Part shown: one piece after another, positions 9,832 through 55,717 of the stretch
Numbering within the stretch: the first letter of the stretch is position 1
Layout: every line of letters starts with the position of its first letter
From: Actinomycetes bacterium
GTDB lineage: Bacteria; Actinomycetota; Thermoleophilia; BMS3ABIN01
DNA: 64,000 bases
Assembly (NCBI GenBank): GCA_021791195.1
Contig: JAJYXB010000013.1
Span: 3,697 to 67,696, forward strand
Direction: 5' to 3'
The notes under the pieces: generated by a model
The model's input: the letters and a program-made list of their open reading frames with translations, nothing else
Told to the model about the DNA's origin: nothing
Databases searched by the model: none
Program-made: the position numbers and the translations under genes

Positions 9832-9835
9832 CGCC

Positions 9836-37511: not shown

Positions 37512-38585
37512 ATGAGCGATACGGTATCCGCAACCGACCTGACTGAGATCGGGCGGCAGCTCTTTGCCGGCGATCTCGTAAGGAGAAGTTACGACGTCCA
37601 CGGGATCGGTACCCGCCTGCTGACTGATTCAGCCGCGGTCGCGGCGGCGATTGACAGTTTTCTGTCTCCATTCGCATCCGGGAACAACGGCACAACCGGC
37701 GCCGGCATCGAAGTCTTCCTGTTTACCACGGATGAGCTAGATGAAAGGATGGCGGCGGTGCCACCAGGCGCGTCGCCGCTGTATGACTGGGGCCCGCTGA
37801 AGTTTTTTCATGCGGGGACGAGCCGTTTTCTGGAACTGGATACGCGAGCGCGCGCCCTGGCTGATGTCGAACATCGCCGCCTCGTGGGTTTTATCCGCCG
37901 GGATGCCCTCGACTCCGGCTGGCTGGTCTCGCATCAGATCTTCTACCCCCTTTGGGGGCAGCTGATGAAAGAGTGCGGGCTTTACCCGTTTCACGCCGCG
38001 GGGTTGACCAGGAACAATACCGGCCTGCTGCTGGCCGGCCGCAGCGGCAGCGGCAAGTCGACGCTGACGCTGCAACTGGTAAGGCGCGGCTACGGCTGTC
38101 TGGGCGATGACACTGTCTTCCTGCGGCAGACCGGCAGCCGGGTGGAAGCGCTGGCGTTTCCGGAAGAGATCAACGTGACCGAAGAGACGCGCCGGCTGTT
38201 GCCCGAGCTTGCGAAAGTGGAGAAGTTCACGGTAGATCCGCTGCGGGATAAAGCTTCGTTCGAGCTGGAGTCGCTGTTCCCGGCCAGCAGCGTCAGCCGC
38301 ACCGAGCCGGAGCTGCTTGTCTTTCCGGAGATCAGCGGCAAGGATGCCTCGACGCTGATGCCAGTGACCAGGACAGAAGCCCTGGCGCTGTGCATGCGAT
38401 TCGGCTTTTTTTTCGTAGACCCGTCGACGGCAGGGCGGCACTTTGAGATACTTTCGGTACTGGTCAGACAGGCCGCGTGCCACCGGCTCGAGGCTGGCCT
38501 CGACCAGCAGGAACTGGAGCGGACCGTGGAGTCCCTGGTTTCCACGGCCGGCGGCAACCGGTCACTAGACGAGGGTATGGCATGA
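37512..38585 (+). CDS. HPr kinase-related P-loop kinase (type found with lasso/PqqD loci)
   Basis: FHAAG...GLLLAGRSGSGKSTL (Walker A) and GYGCLGDD. ATG 37512 preferred; track start is 37425. Confidence 0.82.
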   Translation: MSDTVSATDLTEIGRQLFAGDLVRRSYDVHGIGTRLLTDSAAVAAAIDSFLSPFASGNNGTTGAGIEVFLFTTDELDERMAAVPPGASPLYDWGPLKFFHAGTSRFLELDTRARALADVEHRRLVGFIRRDALDSGWLVSHQIFYPLWGQLMKECGLYPFHAAGLTRNNTGLLLAGRSGSGKSTLTLQLVRRGYGCLGDDTVFLRQTGSRVEALAFPEEINVTEETRRLLPELAKVEKFTVDPLRDKASFELESLFPASSVSRTEPELLVFPEISGKDASTLMPVTRTEALALCMRFGFFFVDPSTAGRHFEILSVLVRQAACHRLEAGLDQQELERTVESLVSTAGGNRSLDEGMA

Positions 38586-38884
38586 TGCAAAAAAACAGTT
38601 TTTTGATCAAGGACAGCGACGTGCTGTTCACGTCCATGGGGGAAGACGCAGTCCTGCTGCACATCCAGCGGGGCGATTACTACAGCCTCAACCACGTAGG
38701 GGCACGCCTATGGGTCCTCGCCGACGGCAGCAAGAGCATAGCCGATCTTGCCGGCCTGATCACCGAAGAATTCGACATCACCCGGGAACAGGCGGAAGCC
38801 GATATCCTGGAACTTGCCGAGCAACTGCAAAAAGAGGGCCTGGTGACCGTAAGTGAAGCTCCTCAGGACTCTCAACCGGCTTAA
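38582..38884 (+). CDS. PqqD family protein / RiPP recognition element (lasso B1-like)
   Basis: 100 aa: GEDAVLL....GDYYSLNHVGARLW, L..EFD....AEAD....EQL..EGLV; ATG overlaps the kinase stop (ATGA). Confidence 0.92.
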   Translation: MMQKNSFLIKDSDVLFTSMGEDAVLLHIQRGDYYSLNHVGARLWVLADGSKSIADLAGLITEEFDITREQAEADILELAEQLQKEGLVTVSEAPQDSQPA

Positions 38885-39323
38885 AGATCCCCGCGATCTC
38901 TGGCTCTTCCTGCAAATCCTGACGACTCTGGTTATGCTGCCGCGGAGGATCCGGCGGCTGAGCCTTTTGGATCTGCTTAACCGGATGGACCCCGGTGTCG
39001 GGACCGGGCATCAAGACAGGTCGAAACTTGAGAAAACGGTAGGATTCGTGGATTCACTGCTGAAGTACCGCGTCTTCCGGCGTTACGGCAAATGTCTGCT
39101 ACGCTCGCTGCTGCTTTTCCGCTTCCTGCGCCGGCAGGGCTGGCCGGTCGAGATCCATTTCGGCGTCCGCCGGACCGCCGCGGAACCACCCGCCGACATC
39201 GACCCCATCCCCAACAGCCTCGGCATCACCGGCCATAGCTGGCTGGTGCTGAATGGGGAGCCGTTTCTTGAAGCAGAAAGTCACCAAAAAAACTTCGCCA
39301 CCACTTTTTTTTATCCTCAATGA
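38853..39323 (+). CDS. Lasso peptide B2-like transglutaminase-fold cysteine protease
   Basis: KCLLRSL...FLRRQG...IHFGV...GHSWL..G, the CLxRS / GV / HxW pattern of B2 proteins; directly after PqqD. Confidence 0.88.
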   Translation: MKLLRTLNRLKDPRDLWLFLQILTTLVMLPRRIRRLSLLDLLNRMDPGVGTGHQDRSKLEKTVGFVDSLLKYRVFRRYGKCLLRSLLLFRFLRRQGWPVEIHFGVRRTAAEPPADIDPIPNSLGITGHSWLVLNGEPFLEAESHQKNFATTFFYPQ

Positions 39324-41209
39324 AATTTTTCACCTTCAGCTCGCTTCGCAGGTTTTCCTATGCAATTCCTCCAGCCGCCGGTTTTTTCGCTGGCGCTGTA
39401 TTTGGTTCAGCTTTTACTGAGCCAAAACCTCATCTTAGCCCCGCGTTCATGCTTGTATCAGGATTTGTGGGCGCAGCTCTGCTGACTGCCCTTTGGCTGA
39501 CAGTTTCATTTCTCGTTGCCATCAAAAACGGTAAAGGTAAACTTGCTCGCCGATTAAGCGTTTGGTTTGGGGTTGGTATGTTGCCACTCATCTCCTTTTC
39601 CCCTTACCTAATCCATCGGTCGGGATTAAATGAGATATCTGAGGAATTGCCGCCGCTGGGCGCCCGCTACGCGGCTACCGCTTTGATGCTGTTATCACTT
39701 CTACTGATTTTTGTGCTGCTACGCCTCGTTCTGACCAGAGGAAAAAACAGCAAGATCTATCTGTTTCTAACTTCGCATCCTGTTTTAACACTTACGTTTA
39801 TGGCAATTGCATGGCTGGCTGTTTTTCTCCCCATGGATGTTCTCAAGAATCAATACATGCAAGTCACCACGGTCAACAGCGCGGCTTTTCACGACGGGAT
39901 GACCCATGTTTTTGACAGCCGTGGCTTCATGTATAGTTCATTGATTTACGGCAGCGGCGCCTCACTGTTCGCGGTCCACATCAACGCCGTTTTATTGCTG
40001 ATATTGCCATTATTCCGCCTTTGGCCAGACCCCCGATCGTTGCTATTTATTTCAGATGTGGCGCTTGCTGCGAGCGTGTTCCCTCTTTACCTTATCGCTC
40101 GCATGCATTTCACAAAAGGCCTGAGCCTGTTACTTGCCTTGATGCTGATATTACATCCCACGCTGACCGCGCAACCAGGCCGATCTGACTTTTCCGAACT
40201 CAGGTTCATGCCAGTCTTGTTCTTAACCGCCGTTTACTTATTTGAGAAGAAGCGATTCTGGTGGTTTATGGGTATTTGCGCGCTAATGATGACTATACGC
40301 GAAGACATGGGAATTTTCGTCGCCTTCTTCGGGATTTATGCTTTGATACGCCATTATCCACGAAGGTGGGTCCTGTCGTCCCTGGGTGCTGGACTCGCCG
40401 CATTTTTGTTTTTGGGAGCAGCCCTGCTCCCCCATCTTAGCCCAGGTGATAGCGCAATTCGCGTATCTGTCCGTTATTCCCACCTGGGCTCCAGTGGCAG
40501 CGATATCGTCAAAACAATCTTTTTCAGGCCCTGGAAGGTATTTCAGGCGGCTTTTGCAGGGCCTTCACACATTGGTGTAGCTTATGGCATTTTTCTCACA
40601 TTCGGGCTGGGCATTGCCTTCTTGTCAGGCGCGATAATACTTGCCATTCCTGCAGTTGCCGAACTAATGCTTCAAAATACAACTAATTTCGCAAACTTTA
40701 TGGCTCTACCGACTGTGCCAATCATGATGGTAGCCTTCATCTTTGGCCTCGACCGGTTTGATCGAATTGTCACGCGGCGTTGGAAAATTGACGCTGGCCG
40801 GGTTGCATTGATCACAGCAACCGTCATGTTCTTTTTAAGCATCTCTGCTTTCCATACCTGGTTCAATCCTGACATGTACCGGCCACGATACAATTACGAT
40901 GCCGCTATCAAGGCTTTTAATATGGTCCCTGACAACGCAAAATTGATGATGCCGGAATATATGCTCGCCGATGGCAAACCCAACCAGACATTAAGAGGTT
41001 TCCACCAGATCGTTTATCAAAATGAACTGAAAGGCAAATTTAATCTAACCGAAGATTACGTTATTATCGATCGACGTATTCCAAATCGAGATGCGAGAAA
41101 CCAATACTACCGAGGTCTGGCTGAAGTAACAAATTTATTAAATAACTCGAGTAACTTCACATGTGTATTTTCTCAAAACGATATCGAGCTATGGATTAGA
41201 AACCGGTAG
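39320..41209 (+). CDS. Multi-pass membrane protein, DUF2079-like (putative GT-C glycosyltransferase)
   Basis: Many TM segments; FAVH, P...LWPDPRSLL, DF.E and IREDMG motifs; ATGA overlap with the B2 gene. Confidence 0.65.
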   Translation: MKFFTFSSLRRFSYAIPPAAGFFAGAVFGSAFTEPKPHLSPAFMLVSGFVGAALLTALWLTVSFLVAIKNGKGKLARRLSVWFGVGMLPLISFSPYLIHRSGLNEISEELPPLGARYAATALMLLSLLLIFVLLRLVLTRGKNSKIYLFLTSHPVLTLTFMAIAWLAVFLPMDVLKNQYMQVTTVNSAAFHDGMTHVFDSRGFMYSSLIYGSGASLFAVHINAVLLLILPLFRLWPDPRSLLFISDVALAASVFPLYLIARMHFTKGLSLLLALMLILHPTLTAQPGRSDFSELRFMPVLFLTAVYLFEKKRFWWFMGICALMMTIREDMGIFVAFFGIYALIRHYPRRWVLSSLGAGLAAFLFLGAALLPHLSPGDSAIRVSVRYSHLGSSGSDIVKTIFFRPWKVFQAAFAGPSHIGVAYGIFLTFGLGIAFLSGAIILAIPAVAELMLQNTTNFANFMALPTVPIMMVAFIFGLDRFDRIVTRRWKIDAGRVALITATVMFFLSISAFHTWFNPDMYRPRYNYDAAIKAFNMVPDNAKLMMPEYMLADGKPNQTLRGFHQIVYQNELKGKFNLTEDYVIIDRRIPNRDARNQYYRGLAEVTNLLNNSSNFTCVFSQNDIELWIRNR

Positions 41210-41401: not shown

Positions 41402-43228
41402 TTAATTATTCGGATAGTGGACGGAATTTCCGTCTGAAGTTAAGCCCTGGCCCGAGAAACTTGTGCTGAAATTACTGATACCGTTCGGTACCTTCCACTG
41501 AACCGTGAAAGCCGCATTGCCGCCTTCGGCTACGCTGCCGACCTGCAATGGCATTTTTGTGACGCCGTAGGCACCGCCGGAACCCCGCACGCCGGTGATG
41601 GTCAGGGCATTGACACTACCTGGTCCGTGGTTATCAACGCGGAGATCAACGGTAATAATCCTGCTCTGATAGTCGCTAAAATTTGCCCAATAAGTTTTTG
41701 TTTGGGACAAACTTAGACTGGGGGCCGCGGTGACTGTCGACTTGTACTGGTCGGAAAGCGTTTTTGTAATATCAAGATATGTGCTGCCGTAATTCACGCT
41801 ATCCTCGATATGAGTATTTTCGTTGTACTCATTCCAGCTTGTGATCATGACCCAGTCTGGCTGGTTGTCAAGAACCGTTTGCCACATCTGCCGGTATGTA
41901 TCGCCACCATTGCGTGGAACTACTACGCCCGGTGAATTTAGCCGCGTTGTATCCTCACCCGGAACGACCGTTCCCATCCAAAGTTTGCGCTGAGCGGTGG
42001 GGTCGGTCATTAACGAATATGTTTTAGTTGCAACTGAATTGGTTGACATAAACCAGGGAATGTTTGTAAAAACCGACGGATTATAGGTATCCAATCCATC
42101 AAAAGCCGTCAAATACCTGGGGTCGACGCTGTCAGCCATATAGAAAGCGTCTATTCCCTTCGCGTGCAGATCATCGAATATCTGCTTCCACTGATCCGGA
42201 CTCAAGCCTCCATTGATGTTGGGATCGCGGCTTGTATTACCAGCCCAGTAAATAAATACCACCGGAACCTGCCTGACTGTGCCGTCAGGCATTTTCTTAG
42301 CCATTTTTAAATAGCTTGGGGCAGTTCCAAAGTTCTGAACGATGTACGTAATCCATTGTTCAAGATATGCTGGATCTGGCTTGCAGCTGGAGTCAGGCAG
42401 ACACGACCAGCTATGCTTTGCGTTTGCCACCCTTGTTTCCAGGTAAACTGCCACTTTGAAATCGTGGCGCTGATTGGCGACATCCAGAAGCGTTCTGAAC
42501 CGTGTGTCCGAATAGGTGCTCCCTGTACCCTGCCACGACGCGAGAAAGCCGTCGATGCCATGTGAGGTTGCTTCATTCACAATCCCATTTACGTCACTGA
42601 ATGATGCTGAATCGTAGGGCGTAACCGGCTTATCAATATGTATTGCATTCGGGTCTGTTGGCCAGGTGGTCCAGCTGTCAAGCTGGTACCAGGGATAGTA
42701 CACAGCAAACACATGTTTTGGCCCCATGCTGCCTATATTCAGTGGCCCATTTTGAGATTCGGCATTGCCGCCAATTGAAATCTGTGCCTGGTTTCCATCC
42801 GGAGCGGTATCATCCCCGCTCGCCAGCAAAACTGGGTTGCTCAGATTATTGACATTATAAATGTCCACATGAGTTGTTTCCCCCCATCCTTTGTCAATCT
42901 TCCACGTCCCGACCGTGGCAGTACCTGGGGTCACCAGTAGATCATATTGCACGCTGGCTCTGCTGCCAGCAACATTTTTACCAATAAAGACGCTGGTTGA
43001 GTCGGTCAGGGTATTTTGGGCATTGCCGGTCGTTAGAGAGCCTTTTGATGTGACAATTGTCTCACCCGCAGGCACCGTCAAACGACTCCAGTCAGATGTG
43101 GTCGTCATGACCACGCGTATTCGGTTCACCTGCTGCCCGGAATCATTCGCCGCGGCAAAAGCGCTGGTAACTCCACTGAAAACCAGCATGAAAGAGGCCA
43201 GGAAAAATATGACCAGCGTCCTTTTCAA
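41402..43228 (-). CDS. Secreted glycoside hydrolase, GH99/GH71-like, with accessory N- and C-terminal domains
   Basis: Signal peptide MKRTLVIFFLASF...AFA; HVFAVYYPWY, HGIDGF..SW and ITSWNEYNE.THIE (ExxE catalytic motif). TTG start at 43228 after GGAGGAG. Confidence 0.85.
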   Translation of the reverse strand: MKRTLVIFFLASFMLVFSGVTSAFAAANDSGQQVNRIRVVMTTTSDWSRLTVPAGETIVTSKGSLTTGNAQNTLTDSTSVFIGKNVAGSRASVQYDLLVTPGTATVGTWKIDKGWGETTHVDIYNVNNLSNPVLLASGDDTAPDGNQAQISIGGNAESQNGPLNIGSMGPKHVFAVYYPWYQLDSWTTWPTDPNAIHIDKPVTPYDSASFSDVNGIVNEATSHGIDGFLASWQGTGSTYSDTRFRTLLDVANQRHDFKVAVYLETRVANAKHSWSCLPDSSCKPDPAYLEQWITYIVQNFGTAPSYLKMAKKMPDGTVRQVPVVFIYWAGNTSRDPNINGGLSPDQWKQIFDDLHAKGIDAFYMADSVDPRYLTAFDGLDTYNPSVFTNIPWFMSTNSVATKTYSLMTDPTAQRKLWMGTVVPGEDTTRLNSPGVVVPRNGGDTYRQMWQTVLDNQPDWVMITSWNEYNENTHIEDSVNYGSTYLDITKTLSDQYKSTVTAAPSLSLSQTKTYWANFSDYQSRIITVDLRVDNHGPGSVNALTITGVRGSGGAYGVTKMPLQVGSVAEGGNAAFTVQWKVPNGISNFSTSFSGQGLTSDGNSVHYPNN

Positions 43229-43285
43229 CGCCACTCCTCCAAGTGTTTAATTATGCCGAAAAGGAAAACGCTTGGATAAAGCAGC

Positions 43286-43367: not shown

Positions 43368-43415
43368 TCTCCCTACAAATTGATTCGGCAGGCAAAAGGA
43401 AAGCTAAAGGTGGGG

Positions 43416-44561
43416 TTACTTCAAAGTGTCCAGATAGCTGTCAAACTTCTCAACGAAGCGGTCCCAATCATACTGCTGCACTTCTCGCGCGGCCGCTTCG
43501 CCCATTTTTCGTGTCAGGTCGGGATCACCAGCCAGCTTCGCCATAGCTTCGGCAAAAGCACCAGCCTCCGGTTCCACCAGAAAACCAGTGATCCCGTCCT
43601 TAACGCTTTCAGCGGGCCCGCCACGATTGACTGAAATCACTGGCTTCCCGAATCCCATCGCTTCGAGCGGAACCATGCCCCAATCCTCATTCAGGCTGGG
43701 AAAGAGCAGGCAGTAGCTGGAGGCATATATCTGTCGCAATTCCTCGTCGGACGGATTTCGCAGGAATATGACATCATTACCGGTTCCCGCACGGCTAACA
43801 AGACTTTGAAAATATTCCTCACTGCGTGGTTCGACAAGGCCCGCGATCCGAAGTTGAAAGTCGGCAAACTGTGGGCATTTTCGTTTGAATTCATGGAACG
43901 AATCGATTGCCAGCTCCACATTTTTGAACCATTTAATGCGCCCGGCGACCACGAAATATTTTTGATAATCCCATCTGGGCTTCATCAATGACGTGTCGAG
44001 GCCCGGATGCAATACTTTCACCTTCTCTGGCGGAGCAAGGCGAGCATTAATGATCCTTTTTCGCACCTCTTCGCTGTTGGCAAACGTGTAATAATAGTTC
44101 TTCCACGCCCGGGCATCCAAAAATCTGAATACGGCGGAAAAAAACAAGAAAGCGGGAGTCAGGTTCCTGTGATTTTCCAGATATCTCTTACGGGTGAACG
44201 GATCGTGAATGACTTTCATTGGCGTGTGACAATAACAAATTACCGGAACACTGTGGTTACGGAAAGTAATAAAATCTCCAAGCCCTTCTGAACTTACAAC
44301 CAAAGCCTGAAAACCGGCGAGATCGATTTTCTGTGTCAGAATTTTCAAGGCGGCACTGCTAACGGCAGAATATTTGCGACTGACCGGCACCCGGGAGAGT
44401 TCGACTATTTTCAGTTGTCTAAATTCAGGGTAAGTCTGTTCGGCGAAATAATGACTGGTAAAAATTGTCCAGTCATGCCGGCTGCGGCACGCCAGTTCGA
44501 GAATCGTCCGCTCCGCGCCTGACGTCAGATAAATCCATGGATAATATAGGGCGATCTTCAC
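43416..44561 (-). CDS. Glycosyltransferase family 4
   Basis: GAER, YCHTP, GRI...KN, EDWGMVPLEAM..GKPVI and GGP.E.V.DG.TG. Confidence 0.93.
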   Translation of the reverse strand: MKIALYYPWIYLTSGAERTILELACRSRHDWTIFTSHYFAEQTYPEFRQLKIVELSRVPVSRKYSAVSSAALKILTQKIDLAGFQALVVSSEGLGDFITFRNHSVPVICYCHTPMKVIHDPFTRKRYLENHRNLTPAFLFFSAVFRFLDARAWKNYYYTFANSEEVRKRIINARLAPPEKVKVLHPGLDTSLMKPRWDYQKYFVVAGRIKWFKNVELAIDSFHEFKRKCPQFADFQLRIAGLVEPRSEEYFQSLVSRAGTGNDVIFLRNPSDEELRQIYASSYCLLFPSLNEDWGMVPLEAMGFGKPVISVNRGGPAESVKDGITGFLVEPEAGAFAEAMAKLAGDPDLTRKMGEAAAREVQQYDWDRFVEKFDSYLDTLK

Positions 44562-45481: not shown

Positions 45482-45510
45482 ACTATTTCCTTATTCCTAT
45501 TTCTTGACAT

Positions 45511-46182
45511 CTACAGGTGTAATCTATTATTTGACATTGGCTTTGAATAAACCATAAAGGACTTTGTTAAGCCTAAGAACTTCTCATTAACAATTATTGC
45601 CTCAGAAAAGAGCTCTCTCAACTCTTTGCCCGTTAGAAGCCTCACTGACTCCACAAGCTCCACAGCCGTTTGCAATTCCGGATTGTGCAATTTATAGCGC
45701 CTGCCAATATAATCAAATTTCAGAAGAGCAGTTTGTAATTTGTGTGGTAAATAATGAAACAGCGGCAGACGAAAATGAGTTTCAAACGGAAAGTAATAAT
45801 TCGGTGTTTGTAGAAAATATCCGCTACCAACCCTTTTGATTTCTTGAGCCATTCTACGTTGCTGCTTGAAATCGCCTACGTGCTCGATTACCGAATTAGA
45901 AAAGACAACGTCAAATTCGTTATCTTGGAATTCAGCCATGTCGCAAGCATCCCCGACATGGCTGGTGAACCGTGGATGAATCGTTTCAGTATCGGTTAAA
46001 TTAAGAAGCACGATCTCGAGGCGGTCTAGCTCCTCGGAATCGATAGCCTCCCAAAAAAAGCGAGTGCCCCCCACATCAAGCACCCGCAGAAATTTCCCTG
46101 TTTGTAAGAAGAGGGAAATAAATAGATTGAATCTTCTTTTTCTAAAGTCTGTTGATTTAAGCCGAATTCTTTTCACGTACAC
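45511..46182 (-). CDS. Class I SAM-dependent methyltransferase
   Basis: VLDVGG, GDAC, FDVVFSNSVIEHV and QTPN..FP.E.H. Confidence 0.85.
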   Translation of the reverse strand: MYVKRIRLKSTDFRKRRFNLFISLFLQTGKFLRVLDVGGTRFFWEAIDSEELDRLEIVLLNLTDTETIHPRFTSHVGDACDMAEFQDNEFDVVFSNSVIEHVGDFKQQRRMAQEIKRVGSGYFLQTPNYYFPFETHFRLPLFHYLPHKLQTALLKFDYIGRRYKLHNPELQTAVELVESVRLLTGKELRELFSEAIIVNEKFLGLTKSFMVYSKPMSNNRLHL

Positions 46183-48686: not shown

Positions 48687-48699
48687 CTGGGGGCAACCG

Positions 48700-50115
48700 T
48701 CAAGTCTCCACGCTCGCCAGCTTATACTGGCCGGCAGTTTCCAATTGCTCCTGTTCTTGCGTATTTGTCATGCGCGTGGCAGCTGCGACAAGCCCGGCCA
48801 TCGCCCAAAAATATGTCTGTGTGGCGCCGGCGCGAAACAGATTGTCTGTAATGCTTCCAAGCAGGTATGAAATTACAACTGCGATCATGACCAGCGCCAG
48901 TATTTTCAGTTGCGTGTCCTCGAATTTAAAATAAGACCTGACCGCGCCCCTGAAAACACCGAAGATGGCGGCCAGGTAACATCCCAAACCTATGACACCG
49001 CTGTCAACAAGCAGATGCACGTAATCATTATGCGGCATATAGTAGTATCCCAAGCCCTCTTCTGCGTACACCCCGTAGCTTCCAAGACCATTACCCACTA
49101 TTGGACTCGCATAGAACTTCGGCAACAGGTACCGCCACATCTCGACACGGAAAAACATGGAGCCCTGACCCTGGGAAAAGCCCAGCGCCTCCTGGAATCG
49201 CTCAAGAATACTGGGCACCAGGAGTAACAGGATAATAATTCCCACAGGTACAAGGAGCAGCATTTTTCTGTAGCGGAAGGATCCTACAACCAATAAACCG
49301 GCAACCAAATCGATCCAGGCCGCACGTGCATATGTGTAAATCAGCGAAAACAGCATGGCGCCGCACAGCACCACATAGACGATTCTTTGCCAGCGAACTC
49401 TGGTCTCAATCAGCAGAGGAATGCAAAGCAGCAGGATCATCATCAAATAAGTCGCATAGGCGTTAGGGTGAGGGAAGGCCGCAAAAATACGGTTGAACCC
49501 CGGCGTATCATGATTGCCTGTATCAGTCACGAATTGATAAACCCCCATCGCCAAAGGAGGAATCGTCGAAATCACAAGCGCCGCCAGCAGCATTTTTAAA
49601 TATCTTCTATTGGCAAACAGCTCCGCGATGAGGATGAACAGCACGATCGTACTGGCAGTGCCTACCCAATCCTTGAAACCGCTCATTTTATCTTCTGACA
49701 TCGTGAGCGTGACCGGCAGCGTGGCAAACAGGAAGATCAGCATGGGCCCAACCACTGAAACTTCCCATATCTTTACCTTATTGACAATAATGTAGATGAA
49801 GCCGCCAAAAAGAATTGCCGCACCCAAAACCCCCAGCATCTGCATGCTAAGGCCGCCCACTGAGATCCGGGTCGGGCCCAGAAAAGCCTCCATCAGCCCC
49901 CGAACGGCGATGTAAACAAGAATGAAAATGCGGATGTCAATCACAAAAAGCCCGGCGAGAATCAGCCCGAGCATCAGCCCAAAATAGGTCGCCGGATGGA
50001 GAAGGCCCAGCGCCAGTGGTATGAGCGCGGCGAGCGCAACGAAGACGATTAACGAAACAACGGGTTTAATATATGCCATGCTGGATATTTTCGGACCGGT
50101 CACACTCTCACCCAC
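48700..50115 (-). CDS. O-antigen ligase / Wzy_C family membrane protein
   Basis: Many TM helices; R....HPN, TYAR.AW, S...R..MW, P..G.GLG and PHNDY. Confidence 0.85.
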   Translation of the reverse strand: MGESVTGPKISSMAYIKPVVSLIVFVALAALIPLALGLLHPATYFGLMLGLILAGLFVIDIRIFILVYIAVRGLMEAFLGPTRISVGGLSMQMLGVLGAAILFGGFIYIIVNKVKIWEVSVVGPMLIFLFATLPVTLTMSEDKMSGFKDWVGTASTIVLFILIAELFANRRYLKMLLAALVISTIPPLAMGVYQFVTDTGNHDTPGFNRIFAAFPHPNAYATYLMMILLLCIPLLIETRVRWQRIVYVVLCGAMLFSLIYTYARAAWIDLVAGLLVVGSFRYRKMLLLVPVGIIILLLLVPSILERFQEALGFSQGQGSMFFRVEMWRYLLPKFYASPIVGNGLGSYGVYAEEGLGYYYMPHNDYVHLLVDSGVIGLGCYLAAIFGVFRGAVRSYFKFEDTQLKILALVMIAVVISYLLGSITDNLFRAGATQTYFWAMAGLVAAATRMTNTQEQEQLETAGQYKLASVET

Positions 50116-51732
50116 TCAGCTCAGATATCCCATTCCGCGAAGTTGTTCCTCAATCGCATCAGCCTCTTCCTGACTGTAAACATCATCATCGGCGGCTGAA
50201 CGCATGGATGTATCCTCGGCGTCACCAGAAACGGGATTCTTTGAAACAAAATCGTGCCTGAAGATTCCCGCCAGTACTTTGCCGTCCATGTGCTGCGGCA
50301 CCGGCAAACCCATTGAGTATAGAATAGTCGGCGCAGCATCGATTATTCGTGCATTTTCGACTCCACCAATTCCGATGTTCGGCCCGTAAGCCATGAATAT
50401 GCCGTCGGCATGATGAGCGCCATGTGGGTCTTCTGAACGGTCTTCAACCAGCGTTTTTCTCAAAATACCATCGTGAACATAACACCGGTAGTCGTCAAGA
50501 ACTGGCACCAGGTCCGGCGCAACCCACGCAAAGTCACCATGATAAAGTTCGTCCTTGAAACTGATTGAACTTACCAGCTCGATTCCATCGTGCGGATTGA
50601 TGAAACGTTTCAGTTTATCGGCAATCTCCCTGACAGTATTTTCATACTCGGCTCCCTGGGCTATCAGGCCATGTTTATCACGATCTACCAGGTTGATAAA
50701 CAACCCCTGCTCTCGCGAGTAGGCGGCTGACCTGCCCCAGTCAACGAGATTATTCATGCCGCGTTCCCTGAGCCGCCCGCCTAGCCCCGAGGACAGAAAT
50801 TTGACCATTCTGCCTGACCGCAACCGTTTGTATCCGGGCATCCACATCTGCTTTCCAGCACTTGCTAAATTAAAGAAGCCCTCGCTTTTAAGCCAGTTAT
50901 TCATGATAAATTCCGATCGCAGCTCCGTAAACCCGTGGTCGGAAATAATGAAAACATTCGTTTCATTGCCCAGCCCGGCAATAATATCACCGATGATTCC
51001 ATCCAGCATGCCGTACAGCTGCAGTATCTCTTTTCTGAACAGTTCACCCGTCCTGGTGTCATAAAGAGAGCATTTCTCATCCAGATATTTCCAGTAGACA
51101 TGCTGGAGGCGGTCAGGCGTGACAAAAACCATCATAACGAAGTCACAGGGGTGATGCTTCAGCATGTGCTGATACGCTGCCCGCCTGCCTTCCATTGATT
51201 TGCGCAGCGGCTTAAGCACATGCATATTGCCCGAATCATTCACAGGCACCACCGGCACATCGACAATATATTCAGTTTCCAGGGAACCAATCTCACCCTC
51301 CAGCGACTCAGGATATGTAAAGTTTCTTGACCGCTCGGGTGTCATCATTCCCGTGATCATGTAGCCATCGACTTTTTCGGGAGGATAAGTCAACGGCAGG
51401 TTTATCAAACCCGTGCTTATGCCATGGTCATTCAGGATCTGCCAGATCTTCTTGGAGCCCATGACCCTGGAGTTGGAAAGCTCGCGCCGCTTCGTAACTG
51501 GATTAAAGAAGGTAAAACCGTAGATACCGTGCTTCCCGGGATTGACCCCGGTATAAAAGGAACTCCATGCCGGCGGGGTATATGGAGGCTGTGTCGACTT
51601 CAATATTCCACAGCAGCTTTTAGCCAGAAGCTCAGCAAAATTAGGCATTAACCCACTAGCCGCCAGCGGTTTCAGCAGGTCAAAAGTTGCGCCATCGAGG
51701 CCGATGACGACCGTTTTCGGAACGGACTTTAT
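50116..51732 (-). CDS. Type I nucleotide pyrophosphatase/phosphodiesterase family protein (alkaline phosphatase superfamily)
   Basis: In-frame VVIGLDGAT lies upstream of the track ATG (51648); PPYTPPAWSS..TG.NPGKHG, DRLQH, SDHGF, H..DG and C-terminal LRGMGYL. Confidence 0.88.
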   Translation of the reverse strand: MKSVPKTVVIGLDGATFDLLKPLAASGLMPNFAELLAKSCCGILKSTQPPYTPPAWSSFYTGVNPGKHGIYGFTFFNPVTKRRELSNSRVMGSKKIWQILNDHGISTGLINLPLTYPPEKVDGYMITGMMTPERSRNFTYPESLEGEIGSLETEYIVDVPVVPVNDSGNMHVLKPLRKSMEGRRAAYQHMLKHHPCDFVMMVFVTPDRLQHVYWKYLDEKCSLYDTRTGELFRKEILQLYGMLDGIIGDIIAGLGNETNVFIISDHGFTELRSEFIMNNWLKSEGFFNLASAGKQMWMPGYKRLRSGRMVKFLSSGLGGRLRERGMNNLVDWGRSAAYSREQGLFINLVDRDKHGLIAQGAEYENTVREIADKLKRFINPHDGIELVSSISFKDELYHGDFAWVAPDLVPVLDDYRCYVHDGILRKTLVEDRSEDPHGAHHADGIFMAYGPNIGIGGVENARIIDAAPTILYSMGLPVPQHMDGKVLAGIFRHDFVSKNPVSGDAEDTSMRSAADDDVYSQEEADAIEEQLRGMGYLS

Positions 51733-51862
51733 TCCCCCACCACCTTCCCAATTACTAACTTAAGTAATTCTACCATGTATTCTTTGTTTTTCCTGAAAAT
51801 ATTTCCACATCAGCCACGGCAGTCGGCTCTGTAGGTAGCAAAATCACAGCCGGGAATCTGAT

Positions 51863-53446
51863 CTATGCGGTCTCCTTCACATTCCGGTTCGCCAGCTTCA
51901 TCCAGATCATGTTTATCAGCATCATGTCGGTACTATCAAAAACCAGTTTATATATCAACACTGCATAACACCCGGCAAAAGCAACGAAGCTCACCGCGAG
52001 ATTCCACGGATGGGGGGTCAGCTCTTTGAAAACAAGCGCCAGCAAAACCGACACCGCGGCTGCTCCGATAACTTTAAAATAACCGCTGGAAAACGGCTGT
52101 AACTTGAGCAGGGACCTGACGCCTGAATAAGAGCTCAAATTGAACAAGACCAGTGTGGCGCCTAAAGCCAGAGCTGCGCCAGTTGCTCCATATCTTGGTA
52201 TGAGTATCAAACACAATACAACGTCAGACAGGAAAGCCAAAATATTTATAAATAAAACTACGCGGGGTCGCCCGCACATGATCAAAGTGAAAGAAACCGG
52301 ACCGGAAAGGGCATCAAACATCTTCCCCATACACAGAACTATCAGAACTGTCGCTCCAGCCTGATATTGGCTGCCCATTACACTTAATGCCTGCTGAGGG
52401 TAAAGAGCCAGCGCCAAAAAAATGGGAAGACTAAGAGCGGCAATCCATTTTGTTACCGACCTCAGCAACCGTTCGAGGCGATCACGCTCACCTCGATTGT
52501 AGAAATCCGATACCAGTGGCGCAAACATGGTATTGAAAGATACCAGCACCATGGACCCGACAACGGCAAGACGCATAGCGATGCTATATATGCCGACTTC
52601 GTCAGCACTGCGAAAATGTCCCAGAAAAAGTGTATCGACCCAGAGCAGCATGATTCCGAGCAGCGCTGAAACAGCCAGAGGCGCCGAATAAGACACTAGC
52701 TGGCGCTGCCGGTATATACGTTTGAGATGCAGACTGAAAACCGGTTCAACCTTTTGCAGGAAATAAAAAGACATTATCAGTGCAATAACCAGAGCCGCGA
52801 TATAGGCGTGAACGACTCCGAGCAAACCCAGTCCGCTACCGAGAACACCAGCGCTCAAGATGAATTTCAACATCTGTTCGGTTGTATCCCTGCTATAGAC
52901 CTGGTACTTCATTTGACGCAGGCCTTGCGTGCTAGCATTAAAATACCTCGCTAGCACGTAGACAGGTATCGCAACCCCAAAACCCTTCATCACACCGGTC
53001 AGGCCCGGCTTGCTGAAGAGATCCACCGAAATCGGGGCGGCAAAAATGAATACCATTGAGCCCAGAACAATGGCAAACGGCACACCCATGGCTATCGCGC
53101 CGGCAATCGTCCCCCGCACCCGCTCCCTGTCACCCGCGCCATCATAGATAGCCACATAGCGCAAGATTCCCGTATCGAGACCCAGATAAGCAACCGTCCC
53201 CAGAATCGAGAATATTGTAAAACCAAGATAGTAGAGCCCGACATTTCCCGGGCTCAGGAACAGCGCCAGGAATACGGCATACAGGAAATTGAAGATCGTT
53301 CTGGAGACACTCCCGATCAGATTAATGCCCGTGCCGCTAACGATCTGTTTCAGATCGTCGATGTGTGTTCCGGAGCGAGCCCCGTGCTCACATTCGCCGG
53401 ATGGCGGACTGGTTTCTTCAGTGGATTCTGCAACATGTTTTTTCAT
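51863..53446 (-). CDS. Wzx-type oligosaccharide flippase
   Basis: Many TM helices; G.Y, D...LG......VGIY and P..S..Y pattern; glycan locus context. Confidence 0.88.
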   Translation of the reverse strand: MKKHVAESTEETSPPSGECEHGARSGTHIDDLKQIVSGTGINLIGSVSRTIFNFLYAVFLALFLSPGNVGLYYLGFTIFSILGTVAYLGLDTGILRYVAIYDGAGDRERVRGTIAGAIAMGVPFAIVLGSMVFIFAAPISVDLFSKPGLTGVMKGFGVAIPVYVLARYFNASTQGLRQMKYQVYSRDTTEQMLKFILSAGVLGSGLGLLGVVHAYIAALVIALIMSFYFLQKVEPVFSLHLKRIYRQRQLVSYSAPLAVSALLGIMLLWVDTLFLGHFRSADEVGIYSIAMRLAVVGSMVLVSFNTMFAPLVSDFYNRGERDRLERLLRSVTKWIAALSLPIFLALALYPQQALSVMGSQYQAGATVLIVLCMGKMFDALSGPVSFTLIMCGRPRVVLFINILAFLSDVVLCLILIPRYGATGAALALGATLVLFNLSSYSGVRSLLKLQPFSSGYFKVIGAAAVSVLLALVFKELTPHPWNLAVSFVAFAGCYAVLIYKLVFDSTDMMLINMIWMKLANRNVKETA

Positions 53447-53530
53447 GACCCCCGCCGCACAGCCAAAAAACGTATTTCATCGGCTCGTCCCGGAGGAGCT
53501 TCGCGATTCTGTTGCAAAAAAAGAGTCAGT

Positions 53531-54406
53531 CTAGGGAGCAGTCTTATTACTTCGGCGTCGATCCATAACGGCGGCGGCAATGATGCCGATAAGCAGACCT
53601 GCCACGGCCGCAACGACCCCAGTCTTGAGAAACGCCGGAGCAGCTTTCGAAGTTGGCACGACTGCGGGAGACATCACACTGAGGCTGTTTGCATCCAGCG
53701 CCTCATTAATCTGCATCCTGGCAATGATGTCTGAATATTGCTTGCGGGAATCCGTCAGGCCATTTACCTGGTCCTGCAGTTCATCGATGCGCGCATTGCG
53801 CGCGGCAACGTCCCCCCCTGTCTGCGTCTTTAGCTTCTCACTTTCATTCCTGACGGAAGCCAGCTTCTGATCGATAGGAGCGATTTGTTGTTTATTTACC
53901 TGATCGATAAATTGATTTGCAGCGTTTAAGTTCACTTTTTGTGCTTGCTCAATCAGTACCGTCGAGAGCGAATTCGCCGCATACATGGCTACGGCAGCAT
54001 TGTCGGAAGTGGCATCGATGTGAATCAAATCGTTGCCGTTGCCTGTCTCTGCCTCGCCTCTGGAGGAATAGCTGAAATTGATATCAGCCGCAGGAACCCC
54101 TAGCTGTGTCTGGACCTTGCTTTTGGCTTCATCAAAGACGCTCGCTGAGTCCAGCAATTTCAGATATGTCTGAGTCTGTGGCTGAATCGAGGAAGGCAGC
54201 GATTGCCGGCTGATTAAATTGCCCTGACCGGGATTCCCAAGCAGCGAATTCACCTGGCCCACCTCGAGCACGGCCGTCGCCTGATAATGCCGCGGCAGAA
54301 CCAGAAATACGACGATATCGACCAGTGCAAACAGCACCGCGACACCGAGTATGATCCATTTCCGCCGCCAGAGCCTGCTCATGTATTCTGCGAGTTCCAC
54401 TATCAT
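53531..54406 (-). CDS. Wzz/CpsC-like chain-length determinant
   Basis: EL.EY...LWRRKWII plus TM, Y.ATA.L, coiled coil, PA..P and C-terminal TM. Confidence 0.8.
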   Translation of the reverse strand: MIVELAEYMSRLWRRKWIILGVAVLFALVDIVVFLVLPRHYQATAVLEVGQVNSLLGNPGQGNLISRQSLPSSIQPQTQTYLKLLDSASVFDEAKSKVQTQLGVPAADINFSYSSRGEAETGNGNDLIHIDATSDNAAVAMYAANSLSTVLIEQAQKVNLNAANQFIDQVNKQQIAPIDQKLASVRNESEKLKTQTGGDVAARNARIDELQDQVNGLTDSRKQYSDIIARMQINEALDANSLSVMSPAVVPTSKAAPAFLKTGVVAAVAGLLIGIIAAAVMDRRRSNKTAP

Positions 54407-54463
54407 CTCCCTCTTAAATCGATTCCAGTTATTTTGATTACGAACCCTTTCGCGCCATTCATC

Positions 54464-55717
54464 CTAGTCAAATTTTGCCGGCTGTTTCAACAATCGCAGC
54501 GCTATCAGTACAGGGTATATGAAATAATATAGCTCAGAATGCCTTATCTTCGGCAGAACTGGATAATATTCTAAATACCAATCGACCTTCGGGAGTGCCC
54601 GTCGCAGAATTGCCACATACCGTTTTCCGGAATCATCGCGCATTATCCGCCAGAGCTCCAAAACCGGCTTCCGCTTCAGCTGCTGCATTTCCAGAATGTT
54701 ATTCCGCCGCGCCAGCTGTTCGAAAAACCTTGCTGTTAAATATTTTGGCTTTAAATTTGCAAGTGTAGCATTTGGCACTTCCGATAGCCCGCAAACCTCG
54801 CTGGTCAGAATAAGCGCATAATAAACAAATGTCTTCAGATGATAGCGGCTCACCCTTCTGGCAAAATTGTCCCAGTCCATTCCCGGCCCATAACGCCTGA
54901 CGACCTGCTCCACATCCTTAAACCAGATCAGGCGATTGCTGTCGTGGTGAGCAGTCATATGAACACATTGAAAGATGAGTGTATCTTCCGGAGACAGCGT
55001 TTTAATCGTGGTTCCGCCGACTTCTACCATCTTGGCAGACCGCCAGATTTCATCATAGTCAACCGCAATAGATGATTCGTGTGTGGGCAGATTGATAAGC
55101 TTCCAATGAAGATCGATCGGTAGCGAGCCTTCCTTTGCAAGGTGAACCTGGTTCTTGATCTTCCCTTTGCCCGTGAAGATGTCCGCCTTATCCTCAACCA
55201 GACTGTATCCGAGCGCGGTGAACGCATCAATTGCTCTGGCAATATCTTCTTTACGCACAAAATAATCCAGATCTCCAAAACTTCTCATGTTGTCCCGCTG
55301 ATAGACAACCTCATCAAGAACGGGCCCCTTGAACAAAATATTTTCAATGCCCAGCCTTGTCAGCTCTGAGGTTATAATCGCCACGTCCCTGTTAGCCATC
55401 GCTATCCGGGCAATTTGGGCAATCCGCACCTGACGTAATGTATTCAAAACCTCGCCGGGAACGTGCTCTTCCAGCGAACTCAGAGCTTCCTGGGCGTAGC
55501 CTATAACCCCGTGAAATGCCGCTTGGTCAACCAACCTGTGCCATTCAGCGGCTCGACAAGCGTCAATCAGCCTTACCCGGAGATCAACGTCTGTGTCGTC
55601 CGTACGAACACACTCAACCAGCAATCGTTCGGTGGGATCGAGCAATTCCGTCCGAAATAGCCGTTCTGATCTGTTGATTTCTGGCACCATCTTTGTATGT
55701 TTCTGGATAGAAGTCAC
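54464..55717 (-). CDS. Nucleotidyltransferase, NTP_transf_5-like (type associated with lasso/PqqD loci)
   Basis: FKGP.L...Y....R.FGDLD.FV, IDLHW.L and H...H....L.W..D. Confidence 0.85.
   Translation of the reverse strand: MTSIQKHTKMVPEINRSERLFRTELLDPTERLLVECVRTDDTDVDLRVRLIDACRAAEWHRLVDQAAFHGVIGYAQEALSSLEEHVPGEVLNTLRQVRIAQIARIAMANRDVAIITSELTRLGIENILFKGPVLDEVVYQRDNMRSFGDLDYFVRKEDIARAIDAFTALGYSLVEDKADIFTGKGKIKNQVHLAKEGSLPIDLHWKLINLPTHESSIAVDYDEIWRSAKMVEVGGTTIKTLSPEDTLIFQCVHMTAHHDSNRLIWFKDVEQVVRRYGPGMDWDNFARRVSRYHLKTFVYYALILTSEVCGLSEVPNATLANLKPKYLTARFFEQLARRNNILEMQQLKRKPVLELWRIMRDDSGKRYVAILRRALPKVDWYLEYYPVLPKIRHSELYYFIYPVLIALRLLKQPAKFD

What the first reader, a model, noticed from the sequence alone, without database searches (positions are those of the whole stretch)
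37512..55717. Lasso-peptide-type machinery without cyclase or precursor, inside a surface-glycan locus: candidate peptide/protein phospho-glycosylation system
Seen: an HprK-like kinase, PqqD/RRE and B2 Cys-protease (Cys and His intact) form an overlap-coupled operon. An NTP_transf_5 nucleotidyltransferase sits in the facing glycan operon next to wzz and wzx. The locus is bounded by housekeeping genes (hemW, nfnB), yet has no asparagine-synthetase-like cyclase, no ABC exporter and no YxxPxL-type precursor that I could find. Established: paeninodin- and pseudomycoidin-type lasso clusters use B1, B2, a cyclase and such a kinase to phosphorylate a C-terminal Ser, and the nucleotidyltransferase has been linked to further modification of that phosphate. 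Inference: the RRE/protease/kinase/NTase set has been repurposed to process a linear peptide or surface protein and couple it to lipid-linked glycan, or to activate a substituent for the glycan. This is the best candidate for an undescribed system in the window.
Basis: partly seen in the sequence, partly recalled or inferred. Interest (0 to 1): 0.88.

Follow-up and report, generated by a model that had tools for sequence, protein, structure and literature searches.

The report
Cyclase-less lasso-type peptide maturation genes
These genes look like the processing half of a two-locus system that trims, and probably phosphorylates and decorates, a many-copy family of small peptides encoded elsewhere in the genome, a relative outside the Bacillota of the linear phosphorylated peptides described there in 2026.

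Summary
An HprK/ScmC-type kinase (K1), a PqqD-type recognition element and a lasso-type B2 cysteine protease are translationally coupled. The same operon also holds a DUF2079 membrane protein that models as a GT-C glycosyltransferase. It sits beside hemW and next to a Wzx/Wzy glycan locus that carries NTP_transf_5. No cyclase, exporter or precursor lies in the window.

The module is conserved next to hemW in 12 of 12 related loci from 8 genera, so it is not a decaying remnant.

Precursors do exist, but elsewhere. A family of 40-60 aa peptides has a lasso/LPP-type leader (Y..P.L....N....T) and a core around an invariant Ser (class I FEC..WQCS). It occurs in 24 of 24 genomes of this taxonomic family (4-12 copies each, 8 here) and in 0 of 377 other genomes of the class. 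Copies flank a paralogous kinase (K2) in 10 of 11 genomes examined.

The cores cannot form a lasso ring, and one near-complete relative has no full-length asparagine-synthetase homologue.

The closest known system is the linear polyphosphorylated peptides (LPP) of Bacilli (Nat Commun, May 2026), which are also embedded in capsule loci. This system differs in using B2 instead of an SpI peptidase, GT-C instead of an exporter, two kinases, and precursors in trans. Phosphorylation and glycan coupling are inferred, not shown.

The parts
36236..37390 (-). hemW (radical SAM haem chaperone). Conserved left-hand neighbour, transcribed divergently from the module.
   Evidence: TIGR00539 at 266.7 bits, over its cut-off. 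Adjacent to the kinase in 12 of 12 related loci.
37512..38585 (+). K1: HprK/ScmC-family P-loop kinase. The ORF is open from 37425, but the conserved start is Met30 at 37512.
   Evidence: Found in 20 other genomes of the family at E<=1e-140.
38582..38884 (+). Stand-alone PqqD-type RiPP recognition element (B1-like). It is the only one in the genome.
   Evidence: PF05402 at 68.5 bits. Single copy. 69-81% identical in 11 orthologues.
38853..39323 (+). Lasso-type B2 transglutaminase-fold cysteine protease. It is the only one in the genome.
   Evidence: PF13471 and NF033537. Cys81, His128 and Glu140 are invariant in 12 sequences. Single copy.
39320..41209 (+). DUF2079 polytopic membrane protein with a GT-C glycosyltransferase fold. 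Fourth gene of the coupled operon.
   Evidence: PF09852 at 137 bits. AF2 model with pLDDT 79 and pTM 0.84. The 16 PDB matches with E<=0.001 are all GT-C enzymes: ALG12, STT3/OST, PglB and ArnT. Follows B2 in 9 of 12 loci.
41402..43234 (-). Secreted GH99/GH71/WbsX-like protein.
43416..45481 (-). GT4 (43416-44561) and GT2 (44558-45481) glycosyltransferases.
   Evidence: Orthologues at 56-67% identity in 5 related loci.
45511..46182 (-). SAM-dependent methyltransferase. In 3 related loci a methyltransferase is the fifth gene of the operon.
46339..47514 (+). Radical SAM/SPASM enzyme with no equivalog. Its role is open: it could modify the peptide or a sugar.
   Evidence: Orthologues in 4 of 12 loci, and a divergent one in a fifth locus.
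47511..53446 (-). GT4 (47511-48686), Wzy_C polymerase/ligase-type protein (48700-50115), type I phosphodiesterase-family protein (50116-51648) and Wzx flippase (51863-53446).
53531..54406 (-). Wzz chain-length determinant.
54464..55717 (-). NTP_transf_5 nucleotidyltransferase, the same Pfam family as the NTP transferases of kinase-type lasso clusters. Accessory to the module.
   Evidence: PF14907 at 184 bits. Single copy. Over the cut-off in 13 of 24 family genomes, and on the K1 contig within 2-30 kb in 11 of them.
55757..58742 (-). Second phosphodiesterase-family protein (55757-57115) and the initiating polyprenyl-phosphate sugar phosphotransferase (57186-58742).
   Evidence: TIGR03025 at 385.6 bits.

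Best explanation
The K1-PqqD-B2-DUF2079 operon is the trans-acting maturation half of a split, cyclase-less RiPP system derived from lasso machinery.

Proposed substrates: a lineage-specific, many-copy family of ribosomal peptides encoded elsewhere. This genome has 8. Two of them flank the paralogous kinase K2 on contig C8.
- Class I: leader ...REP-YAKPELVKH(D/E)NLK(D/E)IT, core FEC(P/A)xWQCSVxVP....
- Class II: the same leader type with an acidic core.

Proposed steps (all inferred):
1. PqqD binds the Y..P.L leader.
2. PqqD presents the leader to B2, which removes it next to the invariant Thr.
3. K1 and/or K2 phosphorylate a core Ser. The Ser of WxCS is invariant.
4. The linear product is then decorated by NTP_transf_5 or a methyltransferase where these are present, possibly by the radical SAM/SPASM enzyme, and by the GT-C protein DUF2079 using a lipid-linked sugar outside the membrane. 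The neighbouring Wzx/Wzy locus may supply that sugar.

Shown: the gene content, its conservation, the existence, coding nature and distribution of the peptide family, the lack of a cyclase, and the GT-C fold.

Inferred: every biochemical step, and the pairing of these peptides with this PqqD/B2.
For: Module and synteny:
- dnaJ-hrcA-hemW | K1-PqqD-B2-DUF2079 recurs in related loci: K1 and PqqD in 12 of 12, B2 in 11 of 12, DUF2079 in 9 of 12 (two of the three misses are contig ends), across 8 genera.
- PqqD is 70-81% identical to the window's copy, against 60-73% for dnaJ.
- B2 and DUF2079 stay adjacent even where they moved 21 kb from K1, in G036.

No cyclase:
- Full-length Asn_synthase hits in 24 genomes never lie on the K1 contig. 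The one same-contig hit is a weak partial one 212 kb away.
- G018 (98% complete) has no full-length hit at all.
- No archaeal-type SpI scores over its cut-off in the genome.

Precursor family:
- A lasso-leader regex fixed beforehand, which recovers the precursor of a true lasso cluster (L077) as a control, led to the family.
- Y, P, N, T and S are invariant in 36 aligned copies.
- Third-codon positions carry 6804 pairwise differences against 2535 and 2486 at positions 1 and 2, in 34 copies.
- The copy upstream of K2 has its own Shine-Dalgarno sequence and a terminator hairpin.
- At least 200 public cluster representatives exist, all called 'hypothetical protein'.
- One copy passes NCBI's lasso-leader model NF033521 (22.1 bits against a cut-off of 19).

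Distribution and linkage:
- The peptides occur in 24 of 24 genomes of family f1 and in 0 of 377 genomes of 11 other families. The K1/K2 profile is found at high score only in f1.
- Copies flank K2 in 10 of 11 genomes examined.
- PqqD and B2 are the only RRE and B2 in the genome.

Independent lineages:
- In another family (G226), a 23-aa leader-type ORF with SD and hairpin sits directly upstream of PqqD-kinase, next to a propeller protein and Wzx.
- G027 and G332 embed kinase + PqqD + NTP_transf_5 among GT2/GT4 genes, and none of the ORFs scanned there is a B2 or an Asn synthase.

Fold and precedent:
- DUF2079 models as GT-C.
- LPP BGCs of Bacilli (RRE + HprK-like kinase + NTP transferase + peptidase, no cyclase, inside capsule loci) give linear Ser-polyphosphorylated peptides. 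Their leader motif is YxxPxVLxHQxIxFETxxS (PMC13381572, sections 6 and 7).
Against: - No precursor lies next to PqqD/B2 in the window or in any of 14 K1-type loci. The pairing rests on co-distribution, which shared ancestry confounds, and on PqqD and B2 being unique in the genome.
- G054 (92% complete) has 7 peptide copies but no detectable B2.
- NTP_transf_5 is missing from 11 of 24 genomes, four of them 94-99% complete.
- Known kinases of this type act on a C-terminal Ser (lasso; PMC8498205) or on Ser3 (LPP). Here the invariant Ser is at core position 8-9, and class I cores do not end in Ser.
- No exporter was found at either locus.
- K1, PqqD and the radical SAM enzyme all score below the cut-offs of every named NCBIfam equivalog.
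- No expression or chemical data exist.
Confidence: 0.6

Rival explanations
1. This is an ordinary lasso peptide system whose cyclase and precursors simply lie elsewhere in the genome. The Cys-less AsnB homologue on contig C24 would serve as the cyclase.
For: Precursors with a lasso-type leader do lie elsewhere. One of the two AsnB homologues on C24 has Ser where the glutamine-hydrolysing Cys should be, and it sits beside a radical SAM/SPASM gene. True lasso clusters with a homologous kinase, B1, B2, a cyclase, NTP_transf_5 and an ABC exporter occur in the same class (L077; L067).
Against: By the lasso rule as I recall it, no core has Gly/Ala/Ser/Cys at position 1 together with Asp/Glu at positions 7-9 (alignment of 36 copies). 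G018 (98% complete) keeps K1, B2 and 11 peptide copies but has no full-length Asn-synthase homologue. The C24 homologues keep strong GATase domains (133-172 bits), whereas the real cyclase of L077 scores 37.6 bits. They sit among B12-radical SAM genes, not peptide genes. No exporter is present.
Confidence: 0.04
2. The operon has no link to the dispersed peptides. The kinase, PqqD and B2 instead regulate or modify the surface glycan, or a protein of the glycan machinery. The peptides are matured only by K2 and unknown factors.
For: The operon is always beside glycan genes and never beside a precursor. In other families, kinase + PqqD + NTP_transf_5 are interleaved with GT2/GT4 genes. No precursor was seen in those stretches by the loose regex.
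Against: Every characterised PqqD-type RRE binds a peptide leader, and B2 is a leader peptidase (PMC13381572, section 11). The genome encodes 8 peptides with exactly that leader type and no other RRE or B2. In G226 a leader-type ORF abuts PqqD-kinase. In Bacilli, the same gene set inside capsule loci acts on peptides.
Confidence: 0.15
3. The peptides are matured by this module into a secreted, cross-linked signal or antimicrobial RiPP. The two Cys would form a disulfide or a radical-SAM thioether, with Ser-phosphate. The neighbouring glycan locus would be coincidental, and DUF2079 would act as exporter or immunity protein rather than as a glycosyltransferase.
For: Class I cores carry two conserved Cys and a Trp. 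A radical SAM/SPASM gene recurs in the locus. The glycan part has about 50% G+C against about 61% for K1-B2, and it differs between relatives (types a and b), as a variable island would. No final glycosylated LPP product is known either.
Against: DUF2079 is translationally coupled to B2 and has a GT-C fold with conserved acidic motifs. NTP_transf_5 or a methyltransferase follows it on the same strand in 7 loci. The glycan association recurs in unrelated families and in Bacilli.
Confidence: 0.2

Closest known systems
Linear polyphosphorylated peptides (LPP) of Bacillota (Popov et al., Nat Commun 2026, PMC13381572; sections 6, 7 and 12 and passages read)
   Same: - Discrete RRE, HprK-like kinase and uncharacterised NTP transferase.
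- No macrolactam cyclase.
- Embedded in polysaccharide loci.
- Precursor leader with Y..P.(V/L)..H....T.
- Final product and role unknown.
   Different: - The leader peptidase here is lasso-type B2, not the SpI-like LppS. No archaeal-type SpI scores over its cut-off in the genome.
- No MsbA-like exporter; a GT-C (DUF2079) gene is coupled to the peptidase instead.
- Two paralogous kinases.
- Precursors are unlinked to the RRE and peptidase, and there are 4-12 per genome.
- The invariant Ser is at core position 8-9, not 3.
- The system looks vertically conserved across one Thermoleophilia-labelled family, whereas LPPs are patchy in Bacilli.
- The paper calls LPPs restricted to Bacillota.
Kinase-type lasso clusters (paeninodin; pseudomycoidin with NTP transferase; review PMC8498205, passages read)
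   Same: B1 (PqqD), B2, an HprK-like kinase and NTP_transf_5 are homologous. A YxxP leader with a conserved Thr near the cleavage site is shared.
   Different: There is no cyclase and no ABC exporter, and the cores are unable to form the ring. Known kinases of this type phosphorylate a C-terminal Ser, which class I peptides lack.
SynChlorMet cassette (ScmC/ScmD/ScmE/ScmF) and HprK-related kinase A / PqqD_rel_X (NCBIfam models; no paper found)
   Same: An HprK-like (Pfam 'ScmC') protein is paired with a PqqD homologue, and a radical SAM/SPASM gene lies nearby.
   Different: All scores are far below the cut-offs: ScmC 30 against 125, ScmD 31.5 against 100, ScmF 45.7 against 400, HprK_rel_A 51.6 against 200. 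There is no PqqD_rel_X match.
Mycofactocin pathway (composition recalled from my own knowledge; model names seen)
   Same: The logic is the same: peptide + PqqD-type chaperone + radical SAM/SPASM + peptidase + GT2 give a glycosylated peptide-derived product. The best NCBIfam hit of the GT2 here is MftF.
   Different: It is not a member: MftF scores 70.7 bits against a cut-off of 280, and the mycofactocin radical SAM model 31.7 against 265. The precursor, peptidase and kinases are different.

Membership tests
Lasso peptide biosynthetic system | B1 (PqqD RRE) and B2 (Cys protease) | tested here: met
   PF05402 at 68.5 bits. NF033537 at 36.9 bits, over its cut-off of 33. Cys and His invariant.
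Lasso peptide biosynthetic system | Asn-synthetase-like macrolactam cyclase in the cluster | tested here: not met
   None in the window. No full-length hit on the K1 contig in 24 genomes, and none at all in G018.
Lasso peptide biosynthetic system | Precursor with a YxxP leader and a ring-competent core (small residue at position 1, Asp/Glu at positions 7-9; rule recalled) | tested here: not met
   The leader motif is present, but no core among 36 aligned copies is ring-competent. The control precursor in L077 is ring-competent.
LPP (linear polyphosphorylated peptides) | Discrete RRE + HprK-like kinase, no cyclase, inside a polysaccharide locus | tested here: met
   Definition taken from PMC13381572, section 6.
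LPP (linear polyphosphorylated peptides) | SpI-like (SipW-type) leader peptidase LppS | tested here: not met
   No such gene at either locus. TIGR02228 has no match over its cut-off in the genome, and its two weak hits lie on other contigs.
LPP (linear polyphosphorylated peptides) | MsbA-like exporter LppD | tested here: not met
   No ABC domain among the ORFs scanned at the K1 and K2 loci.
LPP (linear polyphosphorylated peptides) | NTP transferase LppN | tested here: inconclusive
   PF14907 lies 17 kb from K1 here. It is present in 13 of 24 family genomes. Homology to LppN itself was not tested because no LppN sequence was at hand.
LPP (linear polyphosphorylated peptides) | Precursor motif YxxPxVLxHQxIxFETxxS | tested here: inconclusive
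   Read by eye against alignment A5: Y, P, the hydrophobic pair, H and T align in class I; F-E and Ser3 do not.
LPP (linear polyphosphorylated peptides) | Polyphosphorylation of a core Ser | not testable with these tools
   Needs mass spectrometry.
SynChlorMet cassette / HprK_rel_A system (NCBIfam) | Scores over the equivalog cut-offs | tested here: not met
GT-C glycosyltransferases (for DUF2079) | GT-C fold | tested here: met
   All 16 PDB matches with E<=0.001 are GT-C enzymes, with TM 0.37-0.49. A sequence profile finds no solved relative.
GT-C glycosyltransferases (for DUF2079) | Lipid-linked donor and catalytic acidic loop | not tested
   Invariant D290/E293 and R327-E328-D329 exist, but their place in the model was not examined.

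The most novel reading that the evidence does not exclude
The mature peptide would be a phosphorylated linear peptide that the GT-C enzyme DUF2079 (or the Wzy_C protein) joins to lipid-linked sugar or glycan made by the neighbouring Wzx/Wzy locus. That would make a ribosomal peptide-glycan conjugate of the cell surface. It would be the missing end product that could also explain why LPP and paeninodin clusters sit in capsule loci. The many dispersed precursor genes would diversify that surface molecule.
Probability: 0.15. Interest if true: 0.88.

Novelty: new variant of a known kind. Interest (0 to 1): 0.64.

Why it matters
- It extends cyclase-less, lasso-derived linear peptide systems beyond the Bacillota, where the only paper on them places them.
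- The same logic can run with the ancestral B2 protease, with the maturation genes and the precursors at separate loci, and with many precursors per genome.
- It names a previously unannotated peptide family. At least 200 public representatives are all called 'hypothetical protein'.
- It ties that family to a conserved GT-C gene. This gives a concrete, testable route to the unknown final product and to the unexplained link between these RiPPs and surface-polysaccharide loci.
- Genome-mining tools that require a precursor or cyclase next to the RRE would miss systems of this layout.

Tried and rejected
Searches that gave nothing usable:
- The search for related loci with the kinase alignment in genome contigs gave no confirmed relative: 600 pattern matches, none confirmed. 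I used the genome search instead.
- Complex prediction of K1 (residues 30-386) with PqqD returned 'no answer' (score 0.10, mark 0.32). It is no evidence either way.
- The look-up of sequencing runs for the K2/precursor locus listed 17 runs from 5 studies and no RNA holder.
- Sequence-profile searches of PDB found nothing significant for DUF2079 (best E 0.059) and only E 0.7 factor XIII matches for B2.

Leads for a precursor or substrate inside the locus that failed:
- A search for conserved small ORFs in 13 K1-type stretches gave only out-of-frame shadows of known genes among the clusters that I could see; the output was cut in the middle.
- The window's intergenic gaps are 57-214 bp and hold no conserved ORF.
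- The 25-aa ORF at 41264-41341 ends in Ser but is absent from relatives.
- A YxxP in the N-terminus of the window's DUF2079 is not conserved; that region is just the first membrane helix.
- The C-terminal Ser of the phosphodiesterase at 50116-51648 was noted and not pursued.
- The strict lasso-precursor regex found no ORF of 20-110 aa genome-wide. In stop-to-stop frames it found one hit (C15:72717), which I did not take for a precursor.

Literature searches with no relevant paper:
- PqqD + transglutaminase + kinase + exopolysaccharide;
- DUF2079;
- PF14907 (the one paper listed, on phosphonate biosynthesis, was not opened);
- HprK-related kinase A, TIGR04352 and TIGR04353;
- SynChlorMet, 0 occurrences;
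- 'linear polyphosphorylated' found only the one LPP paper.
Supplementary data of that paper were not seen. They may list non-Bacillota or B2-containing members.

Full report
WHAT IS IN THE WINDOW

Between hemW (36236-37390, -) and an nfnB-like gene (59052-60536, -) lie two parts.

The first part is a four-gene operon on the + strand:
- K1, an HprK/ScmC-type P-loop kinase (conserved start at 37512, end 38585);
- a stand-alone PqqD domain (38582-38884);
- a lasso-type B2 transglutaminase-fold protease (38853-39323);
- a 629-aa DUF2079 membrane protein (39320-41209).

The junctions are ATGA overlaps, or a 32-nt overlap between PqqD and B2.

The second part is a Wzx/Wzy-type glycan locus on the opposite strand: a GH99-like protein, GT4, GT2, a methyltransferase, GT4, Wzy_C, a phosphodiesterase, Wzx, Wzz, NTP_transf_5, a second phosphodiesterase and the initiating phosphotransferase. 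One radical SAM/SPASM gene sits among them on the + strand.

G+C falls from about 0.61 to about 0.50 between roughly 39 and 58 kb.

It missed DUF2079 as part of the coupled operon.

THE MODULE IS NOT A REMNANT

The genome is 2.15 Mb in 27 contigs and 97.5% complete. Relatives carry 'Thermoleophilia bacterium' MAG labels.

A kinase profile finds K1-type genes at E<=1e-140 in 20 of the 23 other genomes of its taxonomic family f1. It also finds a second, paralogous kinase (K2, 36-39% identical) in most of them, including this genome at C8:99039-100037.

I fetched 12 K1 loci from 12 genomes of 8 genera. Counts:

| Feature | Loci |
|---|---|
| hemW next door | 12 of 12 (one with a 2-kb insertion between) |
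| PqqD | 12 of 12 |
| B2 | 11 of 12 |
| DUF2079 | 9 of 12 (two of the three misses are contig ends) |

PqqD is 70-81% identical to the window's copy, more conserved than dnaJ at 60-73%. Cys81, His128 and Glu140 of B2 are invariant.

Downstream the loci diverge:
- In three, a methyltransferase is the fifth gene, followed by GT4, GT2 and a radical SAM/SPASM gene as in the window.
- In four, NTP_transf_5 directly follows DUF2079 on the same strand.
- In G054 the order is K1-PqqD-NTP_transf_5. In G036, NTP_transf_5 likewise lies 1.7 kb from K1.

NTP_transf_5 scores over its cut-off in 13 of 24 genomes. It is always single-copy, and in 11 of them it lies on the K1 contig within 2-30 kb. It is linked but dispensable.

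NO CYCLASE

Full-length Asn_synthase hits in the 24 genomes never fall on the K1 contig. G018, 98% complete, has none, yet it keeps K1, B2 and the peptides.

The two AsnB homologues of this genome lie on contig C24 among B12-radical SAM genes, with strong GATase domains. One has Ser in place of the catalytic Cys. I note this but cannot connect it to the module.

PRECURSORS EXIST, ELSEWHERE

I scanned the genome with a lasso-leader regex fixed beforehand. As a control it recovers the precursor of a canonical cluster I found in another family (L077: B1-kinase-B2-A-C-NTP_transf_5-ABC).

The scan gave 17 loose hits. Three resembled one another. Following these through the family exposed a peptide family:
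- Class I: M...REP-YAKPELVKH(D/E)NLK(D/E)IT-FEC(P/A)xWQCSV(V/T)VPPPPA.
- Class II: the same leader type (Y.RPEL.KLGNV.D(V/L)T) with an acidic core (FDDSGW..S..).

Evidence that these are real genes:
- In 36 aligned copies Tyr, Pro, Asn, Thr and one core Ser are invariant.
- In 34 class I copies the third codon position carries 2.7 times the differences of positions 1 and 2.
- The copy upstream of K2 has its own ribosome-binding site and a terminator hairpin.
- One class II copy passes NCBI's lasso-leader model.
- Public databases hold at least 200 representatives, all called 'hypothetical protein'.

Where they are:
- A profile of the family matches 24 of 24 f1 genomes, with 4-12 copies each, and 0 of 377 genomes of the other 11 families of the class.
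- This genome has eight copies, on contigs C8 (two), C25, C14, C9, C27, C19 and C15. None is on the window's contig.
- Class I copies flank K2 in 10 of 11 genomes examined. The eleventh locus ends 0.9 kb from K2.
- No copy occurs in the window or in 14 K1-type loci.

The K2 locus also holds large secreted beta-propeller proteins and a Gly/Thr-rich lipoprotein-like gene.

HOW IT MOST LIKELY WORKS

PqqD and B2 are the only RRE and the only B2 in the genome, and the peptides carry exactly the leader type these proteins recognise. The simplest reading is a split system:
1. PqqD presents the leaders to B2 for cleavage at the invariant Thr. The cut could fall after Thr-x as in lasso peptides, or after Thr as in LPP; this is undetermined.
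2. K1 and K2 phosphorylate a core Ser. The invariant Ser of WxCS is the obvious candidate.
3. Accessory enzymes decorate the product.

The cores cannot form a lasso ring (ring rule recalled), so the product is linear or cross-linked by other chemistry.

DUF2079 models with confidence (pLDDT 79, pTM 0.84). All 16 of its PDB matches with E<=0.001 are GT-C enzymes, among them the peptide-glycosylating STT3 and PglB. It is translationally coupled to B2 and stays with B2 where the pair has moved. This makes an extracytoplasmic glycosylation step plausible. Neither the donor nor the acceptor is shown.

INDEPENDENT SUPPORT FROM OTHER LINEAGES

- In G226 (another family), a 23-aa leader-type gene directly precedes PqqD-kinase, beside a propeller protein and a Wzx flippase. 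No B2 or cyclase was seen among the neighbouring ORFs I scanned.
- In G027 and G332, kinase, PqqD and NTP_transf_5 are interleaved with GT2/GT4 genes.

COMPARISON WITH WHAT IS KNOWN

A review (PMC8498205; passages read) confirms two points:
- HprK-like kinases phosphorylate the C-terminal Ser of paeninodin-type precursors.
- An NTP transferase adds hexose to the phosphate in pseudomycoidin.

The closest system is the LPP family (PMC13381572, May 2026; sections 6, 7 and 12 and passages read):
- The clusters lie inside capsule loci of Bacilli.
- The precursor motif is YxxPxVLxHQxIxFETxxS. Cleavage is after Thr and Ser3 is polyphosphorylated.
- The NTP transferase was inactive in the heterologous host. 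The end product and role are unknown.
- The family is stated to be restricted to Bacillota.

The present system shares that logic and part of the leader motif. It fails the defining peptidase and exporter features, and it differs in layout, copy number and phylogenetic behaviour. I therefore file it as a new variant of that kind, not as a member.

CAVEATS

- The pairing of the peptides with this PqqD/B2 rests on uniqueness, motif fit and a co-distribution that shared ancestry alone could produce.
- G054 lacks a detectable B2.
- There are no expression data (one search listed no RNA holder), and the complex prediction gave no answer.
- All chemistry is inferred.
- The supplementary tables of the LPP paper were not available to me.

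Noticed in passing
G000 contig C8:98117-98239 and C8:102152-102271 (locus L054 8618-8740 and 12632-12772), outside the window: Two class I precursor genes flank the paralogous kinase K2 (L054 9498-10544). Between and around them lie a 958-aa YVTN beta-propeller protein, a 193-aa Gly/Thr-rich lipoprotein-like ORF and a 627-aa secreted protein. The two large proteins share a C-terminal 'LQYNVPSGVS.F.TS' stretch. GGDEF, DedA and BacA genes follow.
   Followed up: partly
G000 contig C24:~76-92 kb (loci L005 and L006), outside the window: A cluster of four B12-binding radical SAM genes, a radical SAM/SPASM gene, two AsnB homologues (one with Ser in place of the catalytic Cys), a methyltransferase and a PMT_2 GT-C gene. 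Its function is unknown. The AsnB pair recurs in most family genomes.
   Followed up: partly
L077 (G271:C3) 8601-15889: A canonical kinase-type lasso cluster in another family of the class: LuxR regulator, B1, kinase, B2, a 64-aa precursor ending in Ser, cyclase, NTP_transf_5 and an ABC-2 exporter. I used it as the positive control.
   Followed up: yes
L067 (G137:C1) ~12300-12700: Three tandem small ORFs with YE.P.V leaders and cores AAGxSxxD, which would be ring-competent. They lie near a kinase hit and an NTP_transf_5 gene and are probably a multi-precursor lasso cluster.
   Followed up: no
L052 (G226:C135) 11393-11464: A 23-aa gene (MRPYVKPRLMRLGLLRQLTRFSF) with a strong Shine-Dalgarno sequence and a hairpin lies directly upstream of PqqD-kinase. 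This is a minimal cyclase-less unit whose 'core' is only about 4 residues long.
   Followed up: partly
window 39000-58000: G+C drops to about 0.50 from a genome level of about 0.61. The drop starts near the B2/DUF2079 junction and ends at the phosphotransferase gene. The glycan part also differs between relatives, as expected of a variable surface-glycan island at a fixed site.
   Followed up: partly
window 41264-41341 (+): A 25-aa ORF ending in Ser lies just after DUF2079. It is not conserved in any related locus.
   Followed up: yes
genus g1 genomes G054, G036, G018, G030 and G042: DUF2079 has 2-4 paralogues per genome. In G054 one paralogue lies on the same contig as the AsnB pair, about 10 kb away.
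   Followed up: no
G000 contig C25:572-661 (locus L085): A 29-aa ORF has the leader motif but almost no core. It sits in an AT-rich stretch beside an XRE-type gene and a gene that looked AbiEii-like to me. I read those two neighbours from their translations by eye; no family search was run on them. It is probably a decayed copy.
   Followed up: no
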